A DNA stretch of 64,000 nt from contig OZ024740.1 in assembly GCA_964016885.1 (NCBI GenBank), positions 200,012,001 to 200,076,000 on the forward strand. The letters run 5' to 3'. Position numbers and translations under genes: made by a program. Origin of the DNA: Eledone cirrhosa. Lineage: Eukaryota. Shown here piece by piece: positions 2,479-60,130 of the stretch (its first letter is position 1; each line of letters begins with the position of its first letter). The notes beneath the pieces are model-generated. The model made no database searches, was not told the DNA's origin, and saw only the letters and a program-made list of their open reading frames with translations.

Positions 2479-2665
2479 GTTATGTAATAAACAACATAAG
2501 ATAATTATTTCATTTACCAGTGGTTTCTTGAAAGCAGATATATCTGTTTTCAGTCGTCAGACTGAATAAAACATGGTGTTCTTATTAAATATGGATTTGA
2601 AAAGAAAATATAAGACATATGAAAGTGAGGCTGAGGAAACAACGGGCGAAGAAGAAGGCAAAAAG

Positions 2666-2703
<38 letters not shown>

Positions 2704-3253
2704 TATTTTACTCTTTTAATCTGTTACCTGTTCCAACCACAAATAAACAAACATACACACACTCAACCACGTGCATATACTTAAAAGTTACGTAGAAATA
2801 TGCTGTCACATAAGCGTATATGTATCAACCGACATGGATAAAATACATATACATACATATACATGAAGTAATAAGAATAAATAAATAAATGAATAAGAAC
2901 AAAAAATATTCAAAGTCAAAAATAAAATAAAATAAAATAAAATAGACAGGATGCGCTTTGACAACGATAAGAGAGAGGATTAAAAAAATAAAAATATACA
3001 AATACACGAGGTGTGTAATTACATAAAAATACAGTTACTTTCATATTTGTAATATTTTGTTTTCACATCCATATTTAATAAAAAAAAAAATACCATGTTT
3101 TATTCATTCTGACGACTGAAAACAGATATATCTGCTTTCAAGAAACCACTGGGAAATGAAATAATTATCTTATGTTGTTTATTACATAACTAATAACCTC
3201 TGTAACCTACATAGAGTACTCCTTTCTCCTGCACCTTTCCGACGGAATTACTT
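2479..3253 (+). mobile_element. Hammerhead-bearing inverted-repeat element in (TA)n
   Basis: Arms 2479-2577 and 3092-3190 are reverse complements; right arm ttcatt-CTGACGA-stem II-GAAA-ccactgg..aatgaa (3103-3160); left arm keeps the GTA triplet; unpaired tail 3191-3253. Confidence 0.75.
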
Positions 3254-3302
3254 ATATATTATACTATATTTATATATATATATATATATATATATTATAC
3301 TA

Positions 3303-3645
3303 TAAAATAAAGTTAAATAAAAAGTCAAGTCATTAAAATTTAGCTTCGTTTATTACTGCTATATATATTTCAGTGACAAGCATTTTTGGCTGTGACCTCT
3401 TCAGGCAGTTTTAATTATGGTATAGACAAGTACATACTTGTCTATACCATACTAATACAAACTGCCTGAAGAGGTCACAGCCAAAGATGGCTGTCACTGA
3501 AATATATATAGCAGTAATAAACGAAGCTAAATTTTAAACTTTATTTTACACTACTCCGGAGTAACCAAACCAACCTGCGCAGTTCGTCGAGTGCTCCAGC
3601 CTGCATACTGAGGTGTTGGTATACAAGCAACATAAACTCAAAATC
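3303..3645 (+). mobile_element. Palindromic hammerhead element (second copy at 48001-48280)
   Basis: Fold-back centred near 3432; actgc-CTGAAGA-ggtcacagccaaagatggctgtcact-GAAA-tatata-TA-gcagt at 3461-3515; tail to 3645; TA flanks. Confidence 0.85.
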
Positions 3646-3675
3646 TATATTATACTATATATATATATATATATA

Positions 3676-4150
3676 TACAATATTAAATAAATGGAAAACT
3701 ATATTTATAAAACCATATTTATTTCATTATATATATTTCGGGGATATCATATTAACAATATGCTATGCCTTCATCAGACAAAATACAATATAAACAGTTT
3801 TATAGATAAATATATTCGACATACCGTAATAAACATCAACTTCATTTGAAGAGGTTCACTCTAGCAGTGAAAATACAGAGAGAAAGAAAGAGAGAGAGAA
3901 AAGAGGGAAATAAGAAAGAAAGAAAGACAAAACGAAGAAAAGGAAGAAAAAGAAGAAAAAGAAGAAATGCATGGGACAAAATAGAGAGATGGAAAAATAG
4001 ATAAAGCGAAGAGCTTCATGTAAAGAGACCGAAAGATATATATATATATATAGAGAGAGAGAGGAAATAGAGATAGATACATATATAAATATAGATATAG
4101 AAAAATTAGGTAGTGGGAGGTCATTTTGAGTAAGTGTATCAATGATGCAT

Positions 4151-4185
<35 letters not shown>

Positions 4186-5329
4186 GCTCAAGTATTAATG
4201 TAAGGGAGATATAGAGAGATATAGAGAGATATATAGAGAGAGAAAAATTTAAAAATAGCCAGACATATTCGAGGCGTAGAAAACCCTATGTTTTAATGTA
4301 TTAGTATTTATAAAACTTACACTATATTGTAAATATCAGTATTCCTGAATGAAACAAGTATTCACAATGCGTGAAAATTCATTATCTTATGTTTAGTTTT
4401 TTAAAAAAATTCATATGTCTATGTGAATCCAACTGATTCACTCCGCAAATTCAAAGTTACCGGAAAACATTCTCAATGTGGTATAAACATTTGAGCGTAT
4501 TATTATTCTTGCGATTACTCTACAAGATTATCTATCAAGCAGAAATAGAGAGCAGATTTCAATATACTAATCGAAAATATATATTATATTATAAGCAGAG
4601 ATAACAATAATAATGATAATAAGTAAAAATATATAAAAATATAAAAATATAGAATAGAAAACTAAAAAAGAATATTACGAAAGAATATTACATAATAAAA
4701 ATATTGCATATTAAAAATACTACGTATTAAAAATATTACGTATTAAAACTTTACATATAAAAATATTAAAAATATTAAAAATATTAAAAATAAAAATTTA
4801 CATATAAAAAAAAAAAAAAAAATTTACATATAAAAATATTAAAAATAAAAATTAAATAAAATAAAAAATAAAAATATAAAAATATTATAGAATACTACAA
4901 TACTAAAAGAATAAAAATAAAAATACAAATAAAAATAAAAATAAAAATAAAAATAAAAATAAAAATAAAAATGAAAATAAAAAATAAACCACAAAGAACA
5001 ACCCTTCAAGGTTAATTGACAATATATTGCCAAGTTCACTACAAGACAAAGCCAAAAATTATCTATCAAATCACATCTAGCAAGGAATATCGCAAAAAAA
5101 GATTATGATGTCCAATAATGTCTACATATGTTCCTATATTTAATATATAAGTTTATCAAGTGTAAGGTTAATTCAGAAAATTTGTATTACTAATTATATG
5201 TAATGTTTCTTCTCTCTTCATAATGCACTAGGGTTTTCTACGCCTCGAATATGTCTGGCTATTTTTAAATTTTTCTCTCTCTATATCTCTCTATATCTCT
5301 CTATATCTCCCTTACATTAATACTTGAGC

Positions 5330-5364
<35 letters not shown>

Positions 5365-5923
5365 ATGCATCATTGATACACTTACTCAAAATGACCTCCC
5401 ACTACCTAATTTTTCTATATCTATATTTATATATGTATCTATCTCTATTTCCTCTCTCTCTCTATATATATATATATATCTTTCGGTCTCTTTACATGAA
5501 GCTCTTCGCTTTATCTATTTTTCCATCTCTCTATTTTGTCCCATGCATTTCTTCTTTTTCTTCTTTTTCTTCCTTTTCTTCGTTTTGTCTTTCTTTCTTT
5601 CTTATTTCCCTCTTTTCTCTCTCTCTTTCTTTCTCTCTGTATTTTCACTGCTAGAGTGAACCTCTTCAAATGAAGTTGATGTTTATTACGGTATGTCGAA
5701 TATATTTATCTATAAAACTGTTTATATTGTATTTTGTCTGATGAAGGCATAGCATATTGTTAATATGATATCCCCGAAATATATATAATGAAATAAATAT
5801 GGTTTTATAAATATAGTTTTCCATTTATTTAATATTGTAAATATACTCCAAGTATTTGTTGAGTGCTTTTATATCAGTTATAAATATTTACTAGTTGTAA
5901 CCCAACAATTTTAAATATAACTT

Positions 5924-8959: not shown

Positions 8960-9485
8960 ATCAAGTAAAAGTAACGGAGCAAAGGACTCGCGTATAATCT
9001 TGTAATTAAATGAGCTCAAAGGAAATAGTTTCCTGGGCACTTTAAAATACAATATATAGAGGGGAAAGACACAGAAGAGTGTGTTTTTCATTACAGGAAT
9101 TTCAAACCACCAGCGTGAAGAGAATATAAGCTACTAGAGGCATTGGTAAAACATTAAAATTAAAAGTATAAATTAAAATGAGAAACCATCCTCACCTAAA
9201 TCACACATGTACACACTCACCAGGAGCATGTTTCGGCATGTAGTATTGCGGGCAAGATCGGCCTTCCACATGCTGATGACCCACCGGCGAACCCACTAAA
9301 ATGGCGAAACATGCTCCTGGTTAGTGTGTACATGTGTGATTTATGTGAGGATTGTTTCTCATTTCAATTTATACTTTTAATTTTAATGTTTTACCAATGC
9401 CTCTAGTAGCTTATATTAATTCACGCTGGTGGTTTGAAATTCCTGTAATGAAAAACACACTCTTCTGTGTCTTTCCCCTCTATAT

Positions 9486-9492
<7 letters not shown>
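8960..9492. mobile_element. Palindromic element with a full type I hammerhead
   Basis: Arms about 9048-9239 and 9301-9492; TA flanks; unpaired segment 8960-9047. Confidence 0.85.
9267..9336 (+). ncRNA. Type I hammerhead ribozyme with intact core and stable stem III
   Basis: cacatg-CTGATGA-cccaccggcgaacccactaaaatggc-GAAA-catgctcctggttagtgtg-TA-catgtg; stem I 6 bp, stem III acatgct/agtgtgt, GTA triplet. Confidence 0.85.
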
Positions 9493-14862: not shown

Positions 14863-15559
14863 ATATATATATTTATTAAATTAACAGATTAAAGTTTAAG
14901 CAAAGAATCGCTGCTTTCACCTTTAACGGGATCTTCTGAAACGAAAACATTCAATCTGTGAACGCAGAAGTAAATATTTAGAAAATGTTGCAACCGAAGG
15001 AAAACAGGAAGACAATACTTTGGTTCGTGAAGACGCTCCCTGCCAATATAAGGGATAACAAAATATCGTTATAGGTAATCCAGTTAGAGGTTGTGAATAT
15101 TAATTTATTATTAATATTATTATTGATGATGTAATTTGAATTTGTAAATTTGCCGGTTATATATATATTTTGTAACAGTTTCTGATAATCTGATTGAGCT
15201 AGCATCGTATTTGAAATTGAGTGGCACTGCTTCTAGTGTTCAGCAATTTTTAGACAACTTAATCAGAGAAACAATTGTCAGACTGTAAATAAATCCCCTT
15301 TTTTCTGTACTGTTGACCATGTTATTTTTCACTTTTTCAATGTTATTACTCCAAGATAAACTTACATAGGAATACAAGTCAAATCATAAACTCGTCATCT
15401 ACGTAAACTTCTTGTTGAGTCAAACAACGCCGTACGCTAAAACTATCCATAATAAGAGGTATTCACAACCTCTAACTGAATTACCTATAACGATATTTTG
15501 TTATCCCTTATACCAAGCTCCCATTAGGTTGAGCAATTATTTGAACGCACGGCACTAAC

Positions 15560-17810
15560 ATGGAAAAAGACTACATAGGAATGTTCTTAAAAAACATACC
15601 TATACCTACAAATAAGGAATATATGCTCGGTATGATACAAAGAACTATTGACTTTATCCGTAGAATCAGATGGAAAGCATATCATTACGATAAAGGACAT
15701 AATAATAATGATAGAAATAATGGGTCTACCAGTGAAAAATATGGGTTTAGATCCTGCAAAACTCCACCGAGCAACCCACAAATTGATGCCTTTGAACTTG
15801 ACCTCATGAACATGATAAAAGAAACTAAATTCAAAAAACGAACACATCATAACAAACTGCAAAATAACATCAATGAACTACTAAAAAAATTACGTAACAC
15901 CAACGGTATTATAGTAAATGCAGACAAAACATCAAATGTATATACCATGATCCTTAATACATACAACAACTTTATACGCCGAGAATTACATAAAAAATAC
16001 GAAAAGACTACAGAGTCTACACTCAATAGCATTAACAAGGAAGGTCTTAACATAGTAAAAAATGTTAAAATATCTGTATGAACCGAACCTTTAACTCCTT
16101 GTAAACCCACTTTTAATCAGAAGCATCATAAATGTAACTTCGAAACTAACCCTACTATTAGATTAATATGTCGTTCAAAGTCAAATAGAGGCAGAAATAG
16201 TAAGTTTATACTAGATAGAATAATGCCACAAATTAAAGAAAAACTAATAATTACTGGGGTAACACTAATGAAGCAATAGATTGGTTTAATAAATTAGACA
16301 ATAGAGAATCTTCCGACTTTATACAATTTGACATAAATGACTACTACTCTTCGATTTCCCCGGTAACCCTAAATAAGGCACTATCCTTTGCACACAAAAA
16401 CTCAGACCTATCACCAGAGGAAATTAAAATAATACTAGCTGCTAGAAGAACAATCATTAGATTCGACAATAGTTACTGGGAAAGAAAAAAATAGACAGAA
16501 TAGCCTCGATATAACTGTGGGATCAAATGATCCAGCCCAAGTTACAGACATTGTCGGAATTTATATAGGGAATTTGATAACTTACAAGGTGGAATTTATA
16601 GAGACGATACACTACTTTTAGCTAAAAACCTAAATAATCAAAACTTAGAAAGATTAAGGAAAAAGATTAGAACATTATTTAATAATTTATGCCTTAACAT
16701 CACTTTTGAACTCAACTCTAAAAATGTTTTCTTCTTAGATGTATCGCTCAATCTTAAAACAGGACTAATAGAACCCTTCCATAAAAATAATGAAAATTTA
16801 GCTTACATTGATTATAACATTAATCACCTCGATCCAAAATTAACTCGATAGTACATAGTATATCCCTTCGAATCTCGCGCATATCTTCTAACCTAGAGAT
16901 TTTTAACGAACATGCTAACTACTACAACATAGCTTTACTTAAGGCAGGCCATAAAGAGATACTCAAATACACACCAACCAGATACAAAAAATAACAACAC
17001 ACTTAATATTAATAACACTATCCACACCTATAGAAGCAACAATTCTAGGACTAAACATAGAAATTGGCAACAAGCACGTAAATTAATTGAACAGTGTACT
17101 AATATAAAGGCCACTAATAACTATAGAAGATGCAAAGATAGAAACTACTTATGGTTCAATCCAGTGTTTAACTCCTCTATAAATACAAAACTACTTTACA
17201 CTTTCTTCAAATTTGTTGACACATACTTCCCTAAAATTCATAAATATCATAAAATCTTTAATAGAAAAACTATCAAACTATCATACTCCACTGCCAACAT
17301 CATAGAATCACACATACATAAAATTATCTATAAAAGAATTTATAATGCAAGTAGCCCGTAAATAAGTACCATAACACCAAATACAAAACATAAGCTTAAA
17401 ACATCATCACAACCAAACACATGTCTGAACACATCAGCACAATACATCAACAAACCCAATTCTCAGCCCGTACAAGGCAACCTACAAAACCATATCGAAG
17501 AACCGGTGCGAATAGAAAATCATCTAAATGTAACTGTCATCTACCTGACAAATGCCCATTACAAAATAGGTGCCTAGAGACAAATATAGTATACCTATGT
17601 ACTATAAATTCAGGTAGCTTAGCATGGGATTACATTGGCTCCACAGCTGAGGAGTTTAAGAAAAGGTGGTACGTCCATAGACACTATAATTAACAGGAAC
17701 TTCTTAAATACAACGACTCTCGCCAATAAAATCTGGCAACTCAAGGATGCAAACATGGAATATAAAATCAGCTGGACGAAGCTATCAAAAGCAACGGCCT
17801 ATCAAATTGT
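15560..17810 (+). pseudogene. Penelope-like retroelement ORF (RT, Cys-rich linker, GIY-YIG endonuclease), frameshifted
   Basis: LKNIPIP..IRWKAY N-terminus; FIQFDINDYYSSI; DITVGS; GIYRDD; FLDVSLNL; WFNP; CNC..KCPLQNRCLETNIVY..DYIGST..FKKRW..H. Confidence 0.9.
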
Positions 17811-17816
17811 TATGTC

Positions 17817-18540
17817 CCACTTATCTCCCTTTGTTTGTTGAAAAAGGAAGTAAGCTGACAGATCTCTGTTTAATACTGTTGGTATTCCTCATAGCTTAGC
17901 ACTCCCCTTGTTTGTTGAAAATTATGAATGTTGGATTCTTATAGAATTCCAGTAATAATCAGGAACTGATTATACAGAACGGCACATAGCAAAAATTGAA
18001 AATTAGAATTGGTGCTCTGAAATAACGATATATATATATATATATATATGAATGTATATATAGCGTATTTTGCAATATACCGTATGCTTAATTTGTTTGT
18101 TGAAAAAAGAAGTAAGTGGCATAGTCAATACTTTAAAACAATAGCCTAAGGTCTTCAAAATGCTTTTAGTTAAGCAGACAGTGTATTGCAAAATACACTA
18201 TATATACATTCATATATATATCGCTATTTCAGAGCACCAATTCTAATTTTTCAATTTTTGCTGGACCGGCAACCGCTCTGTATAATCAGTTCCTGATTAT
18301 TACTGTAATTCTATAAGAATCCAACATTCATAATTTTCAACAAACAAGGGGAGTGCTAAGCTCTGAGGAATACCAACAGTATGAAACAACTTATCTCCCT
18401 TTCTTTGTTGAAAAAAGAAGTAAGTGACATAGTGACTACTTTAAAACAATAGCGTAAGGTCTTCAAAGTGCTTTTAATTAAGCATACATTGTATCGCAAA
18501 ATACACTATATATACATTCATATATATATATATATATATA
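17817..18540 (+). mobile_element. Rearranged pLTR-like element with inverted and direct repeats and a degenerate hammerhead
   Basis: 17868-18078 pairs with 18183-18388; 18093-18215 repeats at 18405-18530; CTGAGGA-atac-caaca-gtat-GAAA at 18363-18386. Confidence 0.65.
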
Positions 18541-42126: not shown

Positions 42127-43182
42127 CCGGATAGTAACACTGAAGCAACACCTTCAACAGAGGAAAAAGGTAGGCAACCATCTTGCCCAGGTTTGTGAGC
42201 ATGAAAAAAAAAATATCATTAGAATAGCGACTGATCTGGAGGAGAGATATGGAATAAAGCCTGATATAAATTTCTCACCCAGAGAAATCGGAAGATCCTA
42301 TTCAATGTTCAAACAAGATAAAAAAATTGACCAATTTACAGAAAAAGTTGTGCATGGATACTTGAGACGTAAAACACAGACCATAGAGGGGATAAACCAC
42401 TCAAAAAGCCTGGCATAGAGTTCCGACAAGTTTATGACATCACACCTTGAGGGATATCTCTATGTAATACAGGAACAAGAACTCCCTACCAAATATCTGC
42501 TGCACAAAAGAGGGACAGCAGCTGACAATAAATGTAGGCTATGTAAAACAAAGATCGAGGATGTAAGCCACATTGTTGCCAGCTGCGAAACAATGTCATC
42601 TCGCTACTACCTCCCCATGAGACACGATGGGATAGCTAGAACCATCTGGAACGCACTTCGGAAAACAAAATTAACAACAAACGAGGAAGAATATATTGAG
42701 ACAGATGGCACTAAGGAATACTGGTGGAACCTGAAAATAAAAACTGCCACCAAATTAAAGCACAACCGGCCTGATATTGTTGTTTGGGACCACACATTGA
42801 AAACGTGTTCTGCTGTGGAGATCAGCTGCCCACTTGATGTAAACGTTGTCAGAAAAATACAGGAGAAGGAGGACATCTACAGACCATTGATGAGGAGTTT
42901 ACAAATCCAGTATCCAAGATACACCTTTAGCTTCATACCCATCATTATTGGAGCTACGGATTATATACCAACCCGCTTCGACCAAAATATGACTAAACTT
43001 GGATTTGCGGACAAAAAGCACAGCTCCCTAATTCATAGTCTACAAATGGCTGCAATGGCTGGCACCTACAAAATTTGCAAAACATTCTTGCGATTCAATG
43101 GATGACAATTTCTTTTCTTTTACAACCTTGCCACCAGGAAGGTGGCCGGTCAAAAAATTATACTCGAAATTAAGAGAAAGAG
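42127..43182 (+). pseudogene. 5'-truncated R4/Dong-type non-LTR element (CCHC finger plus restriction-like endonuclease)
   Basis: QEQELPT, CRLCK..HIVASC, MRHD, HNRPDIVVWD..VEISCP, PIIIGA; in-frame stop at 42416; (CATA)n on both sides. Confidence 0.85.
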
Positions 43183-47746: not shown

Positions 47747-47933
47747 TTTAGTATGGCTAAGTAATGAGACTTGTGCCTCTGGAGTTTCACCTGTCTACTC
47801 ACAACACTGTCTTCCCCGATAATCATGTAACAACACAGATGAAACTCCAAGGTAACAAGACTCATCACTTAGCCGTATTAAAACTATTTATGTTCTTCTT
47901 TGGCATATAGCAATCTTTCTCATGTCAGTCAAC

Positions 47934-47936: not shown

Positions 47937-48636
<700 letters not shown>

Positions 48637-48650
48637 ACATATATATATAT

Positions 48651-48977
<327 letters not shown>

Positions 48978-54135: not shown

Positions 54136-54136
<1 letters not shown>

Positions 54137-54547
54137 AGCAAGAAAGAAGGTGTTGGTAAAATCCAGTACTTCAGTATGCGGATAGGGAGCACTGAACGAA
54201 GATATAAGTTCCGGAGTTATAATAGTGACGAAACATAAGTCAATTGCATGAACACATAATCCTTTATTTACTGCTATATATATTTCGATGATAGCCATTG
54301 AATGGCTATGACCTCATCAGGCAGTTAGTCAGTTCTTAGATATGCCAGCTCTGTGTTTATAGTGTTGATGGTATCAGAGCGTTGGGATGTCCCAAGGCTC
54401 TGATACCATCACACTATAAACACAGAGCTGACATATTTAACAACTGACTAACTGCCTGATGAGGTCATAGCCATTCAATGGCTATCATCGAAATATATAT
54501 AGCAGTAAATAAAGGATTATATGTTCATGCAATTGACTTATGTTTCG

Positions 54548-54554
<7 letters not shown>
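54136..54554 (-). mobile_element. Palindromic element with two intact hammerheads, one per strand
   Basis: Arms 54222-54387 and 54390-54554; actgc-CTGATGA-ggtcatagccattcaatggctatcatc-GAAA-tatata-TA-gcagt at 54451-54506 and its mirror at 54270-54325; tail 54136-54221. Confidence 0.9.
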
Positions 54555-54598: not shown

Positions 54599-55012
54599 AA
54601 TTTATATCTAGTAACATTTATATACATACAGATGCATATCAATGCTAGCAAATATATAGGTTTTGTCTTAGTAACATTGTGGTTCAATGCATGGGGTTGC
54701 AGAACAATAATATGAGAGACGTAAGATAAGAAAATTATAAAATTATAAAAAAATTATAAAATTGACTTACTTACTAAAATATCACTTCCAACTAATTAGT
54801 TTCTGGAATGGAGTAAATATATTTTCCGAAGAACATATAGAAAAGCATTCCGTCGTCAGGAAAGTCTCTTTCCTGACGACGGAATGCTTTTATATATGTT
54901 CTTCGGAAAATATATTTACTCCATTCCAGAAACTAATTAGTTGGAAGTGATATTTTAGTAAGTAAGTCAATTTTATAATTTTTTTATAATTTTATAATTT
55001 TCTTATCTTACG

Positions 55013-55022
<10 letters not shown>
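54595..55022 (-). mobile_element. Near-perfect palindrome of about 310 bp with hammerheads on both strands
   Basis: Centre near 54866; tttc-CTGACGA-cggaatg..cattcca-GAAA-ctaattag-TT-ggaa at 54869-54946; unpaired segment 54595-54710. Confidence 0.88.
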
Positions 55023-58753: not shown

Positions 58754-59416
<663 letters not shown>

Positions 59417-59897: not shown

Positions 59898-59937
<40 letters not shown>

Positions 59938-59942
<5 letters not shown>

Positions 59943-60130
59943 AAGGAGCTTCTACAGGATTAGTACTGTTTCATTCAGATGAAATCTTCAGGAAGCTTCC
60001 TGAAGATTTCATCTGAATGAAACAGTACTAGTCCTGTAGAAGCTCCTTCTATAAAATAAAAAAATTTATTCTGCCATGTATTGAGTACCTTACTTACTGT
60101 GGTTATCCCCGACTCAACCCGGGACCTACG
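59938..60130 (+). mobile_element. Compact palindromic hammerhead element
   Basis: Centre aagctt near 59996; CTGAAGA 60000-60006, GAAA 60019-60022, GTC 60031-60033; tail with gtattgagtacc. Confidence 0.8.

What the first reader, a model, noticed from the sequence alone, without database searches (positions are those of the whole stretch)
3303..3645. Same palindromic element, with the same fold-back centre, recurs 45 kb away
3303-3645 and 48001-48280 share the inversion point (tagacaagta..tacttgtcta), hammerhead and tail. Independent truncation-inversion events should give different breakpoints, so the palindrome itself may be the replicating unit. 54136-54554 is a diverged relative with the same stem I (actgc/gcagt) and a similar tail.
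Basis: partly seen in the sequence, partly recalled or inferred. Interest (0 to 1): 0.7.

Follow-up and report, generated by a model that had tools for sequence, protein, structure and literature searches.

The report
Neighbouring Penelope stubs, locally copied
The two palindromes are back-to-back end pieces of a common Penelope-type jumping gene whose fold points differ widely across the genome, so they are not a self-copying element, but this pair shares two rare marks and likely arose by one local copying event, probably DNA repair between neighbours.

Summary
Real, but mostly a known architecture. 3303-3645 and 47999-48280 are head-to-head, 5'-truncated ends (pLTR with type I hammerhead, one-sided ~100-nt tail) of an autonomous Hydra-type Penelope-like retrotransposon with about 4,000 hammerhead matches genome-wide. 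Breakpoints vary: 43 junction types among 49 short junctions on 91 Mb; 17 types among 27 short-centre sites. Repeated centres sit on short internal palindromes and recur on different subfamily haplotypes, so recurrence does not imply a mobile palindrome. The window's centre exists at only 4 sites, and its two window copies are mirror isomers (CA versus TG relative to the tail); copy 2 is heavily deleted and its hammerhead is broken. Yet the pair is probably not independent: both carry a tail variant found in 8 of 3,155 matches, with no shared flank. A second local cluster (3 of 6 carriers within 271 kb) exists, but a systematic test without it was not significant. Best reading: local ectopic conversion or copying plus spacer flip; a local RNA-templated re-copy of the palindrome is not excluded. 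54136-54554 is a sister family with its own centre. This scan noted the class before on other DNA of this genome; the neighbour link was not found there.

The parts
3291..3302 (.). left copy of a 12-bp direct repeat (TATATTATACTA), probable target-site duplication of copy 1; a third copy lies at 3256-3267, so the call is tentative
   Evidence: sequence
3303..3436 (-). copy 1, inverted tail-less pLTR arm (element positions +108 to -27; +1 = first base of AAACTGCC before the hammerhead core); stem II of its hammerhead is mutated
3433..3436 (.). copy 1 junction: 2-nt spacer CA plus 2-bp TA microhomology (-27/-23)
3435..3548 (+). copy 1, direct pLTR arm (-23 to +108) with an 18-nt internal deletion
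3461..3515 (+). type I hammerhead motif: stem I ACTGC/GCAGT, CTGAAGA...GAAA core, long stem II, palindromic TATATATA helix III; cleavage untested
   Evidence: -16.7 kcal/mol, z -2.9; no Rfam match at gathering score
3549..3645 (+). one-sided ~100-nt tail (+109 to +208); in full-length copies it runs on into the 5' part of the ORF-bearing unit
3582..3582 (+). rare G at tail position +142, shared with copy 2
3646..3657 (.). right copy of the probable target-site duplication
   Evidence: sequence
47999..48070 (-). copy 2, remnant of the inverted tail-less arm (+108 to +45, then about -12 to -23); the middle is missing between two TATA stretches
48069..48072 (.). copy 2 junction: TA microhomology plus spacer TG, mirror image of copy 1
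48069..48182 (+). copy 2, direct arm (-27 to +108); hammerhead core present, 3' strand of stem I deleted
48183..48280 (+). copy 2 tail, with the same rare G at 48216, followed by (TC)n(TA)n
54136..54217 (-). sister family: one-sided tail
54218..54554 (.). sister family: head-to-head pLTR arms with intact hammerhead motifs at 54270-54325 (-) and 54451-54506 (+); own junction within 54372-54405

Best explanation
Both loci are head-to-head end stubs of a Penelope-like retrotransposon family whose fold points vary from copy to copy, each likely built at insertion from two reverse transcripts, and this neighbouring pair likely shares its rare centre because one locus was copied onto the other locally. 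The stubs encode nothing and need the family's RT for any RNA-based move.
For: Full-length parents with RWK, DKT, YRDD, CxCX5C, GIY-YIG, CxxC-E and CxH motifs. 3,984 hammerhead 24-mer matches. Junction diversity: 43 types in 49, 17 in 27. The dominant centre is another one: 327 sites, 31 of the 50 listed an exact palindrome on TCATATGA; it occurs on at least 4 haplotypes also carried by other copies. Two short-centre junctions each recur on two subfamily variants. Arms of one insertion differ at 8 of 523 polymorphic-site comparisons against 5,068 of 25,498 between insertions. One tail in 52 of 56 pairs; the tail-less arm reaches deeper in 17, the tailed arm in 13, 22 within 3 nt, and two loci have non-overlapping arms (L028, L030), which simple snap-back from the tailed cDNA cannot make. 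Pair link: +142G in 8 of 3,155 exact matches, 2 in the window; public contigs read C at 99.9% of depth; unrelated loci share a rare substitution in 53 of 2,346 pairs; 2 of 4 centres within 45 kb has p 1.8e-4 if uniform. Second local cluster: -55T, 3 of 6 loci within 271 kb, with three different architectures and present in only one arm of L140, as conversion predicts. Conversion between neighbouring repeats and reversible 2-nt spacer flips are published (PMC8230782, PMC8604942; passages).
Against: The pair shares only one substitution; about 8 other substitutions of copy 1 and 7 of copy 2 are private, so the event must be early. DNA copying needs a second event to flip the spacer. The published conversion range for Alu is about 10 kb, less than 45 or 271 kb. 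The systematic neighbour test is weak: 7 of 69 close pairs share a rare variant against 2.1 expected (p 0.006), but 4 of 69 against 2.0 (p 0.14) once the lead variant is dropped. The pair was picked after the fact from about 150 expected pairs within 45 kb in this family alone. +142G creates a short palindrome (CTGCGCAG) and occurs on several haplotypes, so it can arise repeatedly. Arm concordance can be inflated by later arm homogenisation. Twin priming is inferred; no RNA or biochemical data here.
Confidence: 0.62

Rival explanations
1. Local RNA-templated re-copy of the palindrome: a transcript through one stub was reverse transcribed in trans from both start sites; the cDNA from the +108 site ran across the centre and annealed to the cDNA from the +210 site. 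One event would give the same centre, flipped relative to the tail, with the tail variant kept, inserted in a nearby TA tract.
For: Explains centre, mirror polarity and +142G in one step; both ends of both copies are at the canonical RT start sites in TA repeats; pLTRs suffice for mobilisation in trans in a rotifer family (PMC3846280, passages).
Against: No arm-specific variant of one copy appears in the swapped arm of the other; RNA-based insertion has no known reason to be local; the -55T cluster has three different junctions and a one-armed carrier; the other two sites with this centre lack the G.
Confidence: 0.17
2. Coincidence: two independent insertions hit the same minor microhomology junction and the same recurrent substitution; copy 2's inner 12 nt may be a snap-back templated insert made at insertion.
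For: The -27 end recurs with other partners (L012, L016, L019, L069, L071, L076); templated inserts are common at these junctions; L054 and L055 share the dominant centre 113 kb apart with no shared rare variant; mirror polarity is what independent joins give half the time; many families and about 150 close pairs in this one give many chances.
Against: Needs a 4-site centre twice within 45 kb and a shared rare substitution (2.3% of random pairs) together; an independent local cluster exists (third carrier near the first two by chance about 7e-4).
Confidence: 0.14
3. The palindrome is a genome-wide replicating unit (a MITE- or retrozyme-like element with one fixed centre).
For: For another centre (-116) about two thirds of 327 sites are identical and dispersed, and 9 of the 13 inspected loci with that centre carry the commonest young haplotype.
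Against: This centre has 4 sites, not sharing private variants apart from the window pair; 43 types in 49 junctions; the -116 centre occurs on at least 4 haplotypes, and solo copies also end near -116, so it marks where cDNAs stop, not a master copy.
Confidence: 0.04
4. Segmental duplication or assembly artefact joined one locus in twice.
For: Same orientation, 45 kb apart; several other repeats occur in both neighbourhoods.
Against: No unique flank shared in 2.5 kb on either side; the repeats shared by the two neighbourhoods are common elsewhere; the copies differ by three deletions and many substitutions.
Confidence: 0.02

Closest known systems
Endonuclease-bearing Penelope-like element insertion with inverted 5'-truncated pLTR and one-sided tail (PMC3846280, PMC8557442; passages)
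   Same: Head-to-head arms, palindromic junction, tail at one end only, partial tandems, hammerhead in the pLTR, insertion in (TA)n.
   Different: Tail is about 100 nt rather than 30-40; most copies are ORF-less stubs; the self-priming reading proposed in PMC3846280 does not fit 17 of 52 one-tailed pairs in which the tail-less arm reaches deeper.
Hydra clade of PLEs (PMC8557442; passages and supplementary File S1, which lists Hydra-1_Obim with (TA)n preference)
   Same: RWK, DKT, CxCX5C linker, no CCHH pair inside GIY-YIG, CxxC and CxH around E/N, canonical hammerhead, (TA)n targets.
   Different: Unit is about 4.0 kb against the usual under 3 kb; identity with any named Hydra family was not tested.
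Poseidon of Anolis carolinensis in vitro (PMC11167929; sections 1-2 of the text)
   Same: Two internal RT start sites define the tail; both target strands are cut and extended; hammerhead cleavage dispensable.
   Different: Different clade; head-to-head joining of two cDNAs was not shown there.
Non-allelic gene conversion between neighbouring repeats (Alu; PMC8230782, passages) and inverted-repeat spacer inversion (PMC8604942, passages)
   Same: Neighbouring copies share non-diagnostic variants; 2-nt spacers flip between perfect arms.
   Different: Distances here are 40-270 kb against about 10 kb; the shared mark includes a rearrangement junction.
Animal non-LTR retrozymes (10.64898/2026.07.22.740005; passages)
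   Same: Protein-less, type I hammerhead, related to PLE pLTRs.
   Different: Retrozymes are tandem direct arrays; these are single inverted stubs continuous with an autonomous parent.

Membership tests
EN+ Penelope-like element | Single ORF with RT followed by GIY-YIG endonuclease, continuous with the repeat | tested here: met
   L036, L045, L059 hold frameshifted RT (YRDD) and C-terminal VYSC...YIG domains between pLTRs. Pfam and PDB gave no hit for these pieces, so the assignment rests on motifs.
EN+ Penelope-like element | Partial tandems forming pLTRs, inverted 5'-truncated copy, one-sided tail | tested here: met
   (one tail in 52 of 56 pairs).
EN+ Penelope-like element | Type I hammerhead with palindromic helix III in the pLTR | tested here: met
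   Motif and fold in copy 1 and the third locus; broken in copy 2; no Rfam match at gathering score.
EN+ Penelope-like element | Ribozyme cleavage, RT and nuclease activity | not testable with these tools
   Needs in vitro assay.
Hydra clade | RWK, DKT, CxCX5C linker, no CCHH, CxxC/CxH near E and N | tested here: met
   against the description in PMC8557442.
Hydra clade | (TA)n insertion preference | tested here: met
   Flanks of the window copies and of the loci printed.
Hydra clade | Length generally under 3 kb | tested here: not met
   Unit about 4.0 kb; a tendency, not a strict criterion.
Hydra clade | Placement in the RT phylogeny | not tested
   No reference proteins fetched.
Self-replicating palindromic element (MITE-like) | One fixed centre in many dispersed copies forming one lineage | tested here: not met
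   4 sites; 43 junction types in 49; shared centres on several haplotypes.
Non-LTR retrozyme | Tandem direct array of hammerhead monomers without a coding parent | tested here: not met
   Inverted single stubs, coding parent present.
Segmental duplication | Shared unique flanks | tested here: not met

The most novel reading that the evidence does not exclude
Palindromic Penelope stubs seed daughters in their own neighbourhood: a transcript through an existing stub is re-copied in trans from the two RT start sites, which swaps the arms relative to the tail, so one junction propagates locally in flip and flop forms. This would be local hopping by a retroelement and would make the two-primer model of Penelope insertion testable from genome sequence alone.
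Probability: 0.17. Interest if true: 0.6.

Novelty: new member of a known kind. Interest (0 to 1): 0.3.

Why it matters
The class is known, and the finding as stated (a mobile palindrome) does not hold. Two things are of use. First, the junction census speaks to an open question, how Penelope elements make their inverted ends: fixed outer ends, either arm reaching deeper, non-overlapping arms and joins on short palindromes favour two primed cDNAs over snap-back. Second, rare variants cluster among neighbouring stubs at 40-270 kb in two places; if general, nearby copies exchange sequence or spawn each other, which would distort age estimates and could reveal local retrotransposition.

Tried and rejected
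Rfam gathering scan of the window: 0 matches. Pfam on 6 proteins and PDB search: no hit for the parent's RT or nuclease pieces. RNA test of a transcription start at -116 and of hammerhead cleavage: no RNA holder listed. Public contigs did not bridge the centre of copy 1, which proves nothing; they only confirmed the rarity of +142G. CpG decay of a CG-centred palindrome as the source of CA and TG: rejected, no CG-centred site among 27 or within 2 mismatches. +142G as a subfamily marker: rejected, its carriers lie on different haplotypes. 11 other pairs closer than 45 kb: none shares a junction; L179/L180 looked like siblings but are 88% identical old copies. Systematic neighbour enrichment: not significant without the lead variant. 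No tree was built; arms are about 98% alike and variants were tabulated instead. Literature: 6 searches listed no paper on local copying among Penelope stubs or on twin priming in PLEs; subscription papers and bioRxiv supplements were not visible. Two look-ups of earlier scan notes for the neighbour link or this sequence found nothing.

Full report
Observation. The window is AT-rich animal DNA from a 3.0-Gb assembly. At 3303-3645 a 134-nt inverted arm meets a direct arm that runs on into a ~100-nt tail; 47999-48280 holds the same element end in the same orientation; both sit in (TA)n. The shared 26-nt centre occurs at 4 sites in the genome, two in the window, with 0 or 2 mismatches allowed. 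Aligned with the two distant sites (L026, L027), copy 1 has spacer CA while copy 2, L026 and L027 have TG when the tail is put on the right, so copy 1 is the mirror isomer. Copy 2 has lost most of its left arm and the 3' strand of hammerhead stem I; its hammerhead no longer folds (z -1.3), whereas copy 1's right arm does (z -2.9). Rfam gives no match. No unique flank is shared within 2.5 kb; the few hits are simple repeats.

What it is. Genomic relatives extend upstream into a 4.0-kb unit. L036, L045 and L059 hold partial tandems with a frameshifted ORF: RT pieces with RWK, DKT and YRDD, then CNCRNPESC, a GIY-YIG domain without the CCHH pair, CKLCLNE and CRH. These are the diagnostic motifs of the Hydra clade of Penelope-like elements in PMC8557442 (passages; its File S1 lists a cephalopod Hydra family with (TA)n preference). 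Pfam and PDB searches did not recognise the pieces. An inverted 5'-truncated pLTR with a tail at one end is the textbook layout (PMC3846280, PMC8557442; passages), and the hammerhead with palindromic helix III is the usual PLE type (PMC4209133; passages). The family has 3,984 exact hammerhead 24-mer matches. 54136-54554 belongs to a sister family: 2,607 matches, nuclease 69% identical over 132 residues, 124 of 226 columns identical over hammerhead and tail; 1 of 19 fetched insertions was palindromic and the window's centre is unique among 7 short-centre sites.

Do breakpoints vary? Yes. The first 100 listed matches contain 25 inverted pairs with 20 spacings from 137 to 4,515 nt, none near the window's 71. 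All 114 listed insertions on C1:1-91 Mb were fetched: 60 are head-to-head, 54 show no inverted arm in the stretch; 49 short junctions fall into 43 types, none of the window's type (some types reflect later deletions). Near the window's centre, 27 sites give 17 types: 6 perfect on ACATATGT, 3 of the window's type (copy 2 is missed because of its deletion), three pairs and 12 singles; two of the pairs carry the same junction on different subfamily variants (counted by hand). The main hot spot is elsewhere, at -116: 327 sites, 31 of the 50 listed an exact palindrome on TCATATGA and 3 more one base off. Two of the three 8-bp palindromes upstream of the hammerhead are these two hot spots. The -116 junction occurs on at least 4 haplotypes and solo copies end there too.

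How the inverted stubs are made. In 56 short head-to-head pairs (a mixed, not random, sample) outer ends are at +108 (44 of 112) or +207 to +211 (53 of 112); 52 pairs have exactly one tail; the tail-less arm reaches deeper in 17, the tailed arm in 13, and 22 are within 3 nt. L028 and L030 have arms that do not overlap. A cDNA that starts at the tail and snaps back cannot give a deeper tail-less arm, and one that starts at +108 cannot supply the tail. Two cDNAs, primed from the two target strands at the two start sites and joined by microhomology, give all forms. This is inference, supported by the Anolis element, which cuts and extends both strands and starts at two sites that bound the tail (PMC11167929; text parts 1-2). 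Arms within a pair differ at 8 of 523 polymorphic-site comparisons against 19.9% between pairs: each palindrome is built from one lineage of template, though later homogenisation may add to this. Earlier notes of this scan reached the same class and two-primer reading on other DNA of this genome; they are not independent support.

Are the two window copies independent? Probably not. Both have G at +142 (3582, 48216). That variant has 8 exact matches against 3,147 for C, public contigs read C at 99.9% of depth, and its other carriers lie on unrelated haplotypes, so it is a private change. L026 and L027 have C. Unrelated loci share a rare substitution in 53 of 2,346 pairs; 2 of 4 centres within 45 kb has p 1.8e-4 if uniform. 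The pair is chosen after the fact among about 150 expected close pairs, so I looked for a second case. Of 11 other pairs under 45 kb none shares a junction, but L135/L136 share -55T. Genome-wide that variant has 7 matches at 6 loci, and a third locus, not part of the selection, lies 230 kb away (chance about 7e-4). The three have different architectures and flanks, and L140 has the variant in one arm only. Against: over all 69 pairs at 5-300 kb, 7 share a rare variant (2.1 expected, p 0.006), but only 4 (2.0 expected, p 0.14) without -55T; at the stricter thresholds p was 0.06 and 0.08. Local kinship therefore looks real but uncommon.

Mechanism for the pair. I favour DNA-level copying: a break at a palindrome centre or TA tract repaired from the neighbour, early, followed by a flip of the 2-nt spacer and separate deletions. 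Conversion between neighbouring repeats is reported for Alu within about 10 kb (PMC8230782; passages), and 2-nt spacers flip reversibly between perfect arms (PMC8604942; passages). The one-armed carrier L140 fits conversion. The rival needs one event instead of two: a transcript through a stub, copied from +108 across the centre and from +210 through the tail, would give a daughter with swapped arms, flipped centre and the G kept. But no arm-specific variant was handed over and nothing explains the short distance. Coincidence remains possible. A genome-wide mobile palindrome and a segmental duplication are contradicted.

Verdict. Six literature searches listed nothing on local copying among Penelope stubs; coverage is limited to open papers. 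No expression, cleavage or population data were available. Interest 0.3; 0.6 if local RNA-templated propagation proved true (probability about 0.17).

Noticed in passing
G000:C1:77.57-77.84 Mb (L140, L135, L136): A rare variant (-55T; 7 matches, 6 loci genome-wide) is carried by three insertions within 271 kb with different architectures and flanks; in L140 only one arm has it.
   Followed up: partly
element position -116 (327 sites): Dominant stop and join point on the 8-bp palindrome TCATATGA; solo copies end there too; 842 matches read through it. Likely RNA 5' end, untested. The sister family shows a like pile-up on CATATG.
   Followed up: partly
window 3303-3436 and L005 (C4): Copy 1 and L005 share both +142G in the tail and +83C in the tail-less arm only, though their centres differ; could mean the arms came from two different pLTRs of one source.
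   Followed up: no
window 2479-3190, 3670-5845, 54710-55022, 58873-59223, 59922-60069: Five more head-to-head inverted repeats of unrelated sequence, each with a hammerhead core in both arms; four of the five hit other fetched loci.
   Followed up: partly
window 9047-9492, 17867-18388, 47760-47880, 48649-48824: Further fold-back palindromes; no hammerhead core in both arms by the simple scan.
   Followed up: no
window 15545-16081: RT N-terminal fragment with RWK and DKT motifs, another Hydra-like Penelope family.
   Followed up: no
window 25.1-37.9 kb and 42419-43105: Two to three degenerate tandem copies (72-77% alike) of a LINE-like element with endonuclease and RVT_1 pieces; a separate zf-RVT fragment.
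   Followed up: no
window 48281-48352, L007, L014, L015, L019: (TC)n tracts grow directly out of the element's tail end in several copies.
   Followed up: no
L054 and L055 (C1:77.37 and 77.49 Mb): Identical dominant centre 113 kb apart with no shared rare variant, showing that same-centre neighbours also arise by chance.
   Followed up: yes
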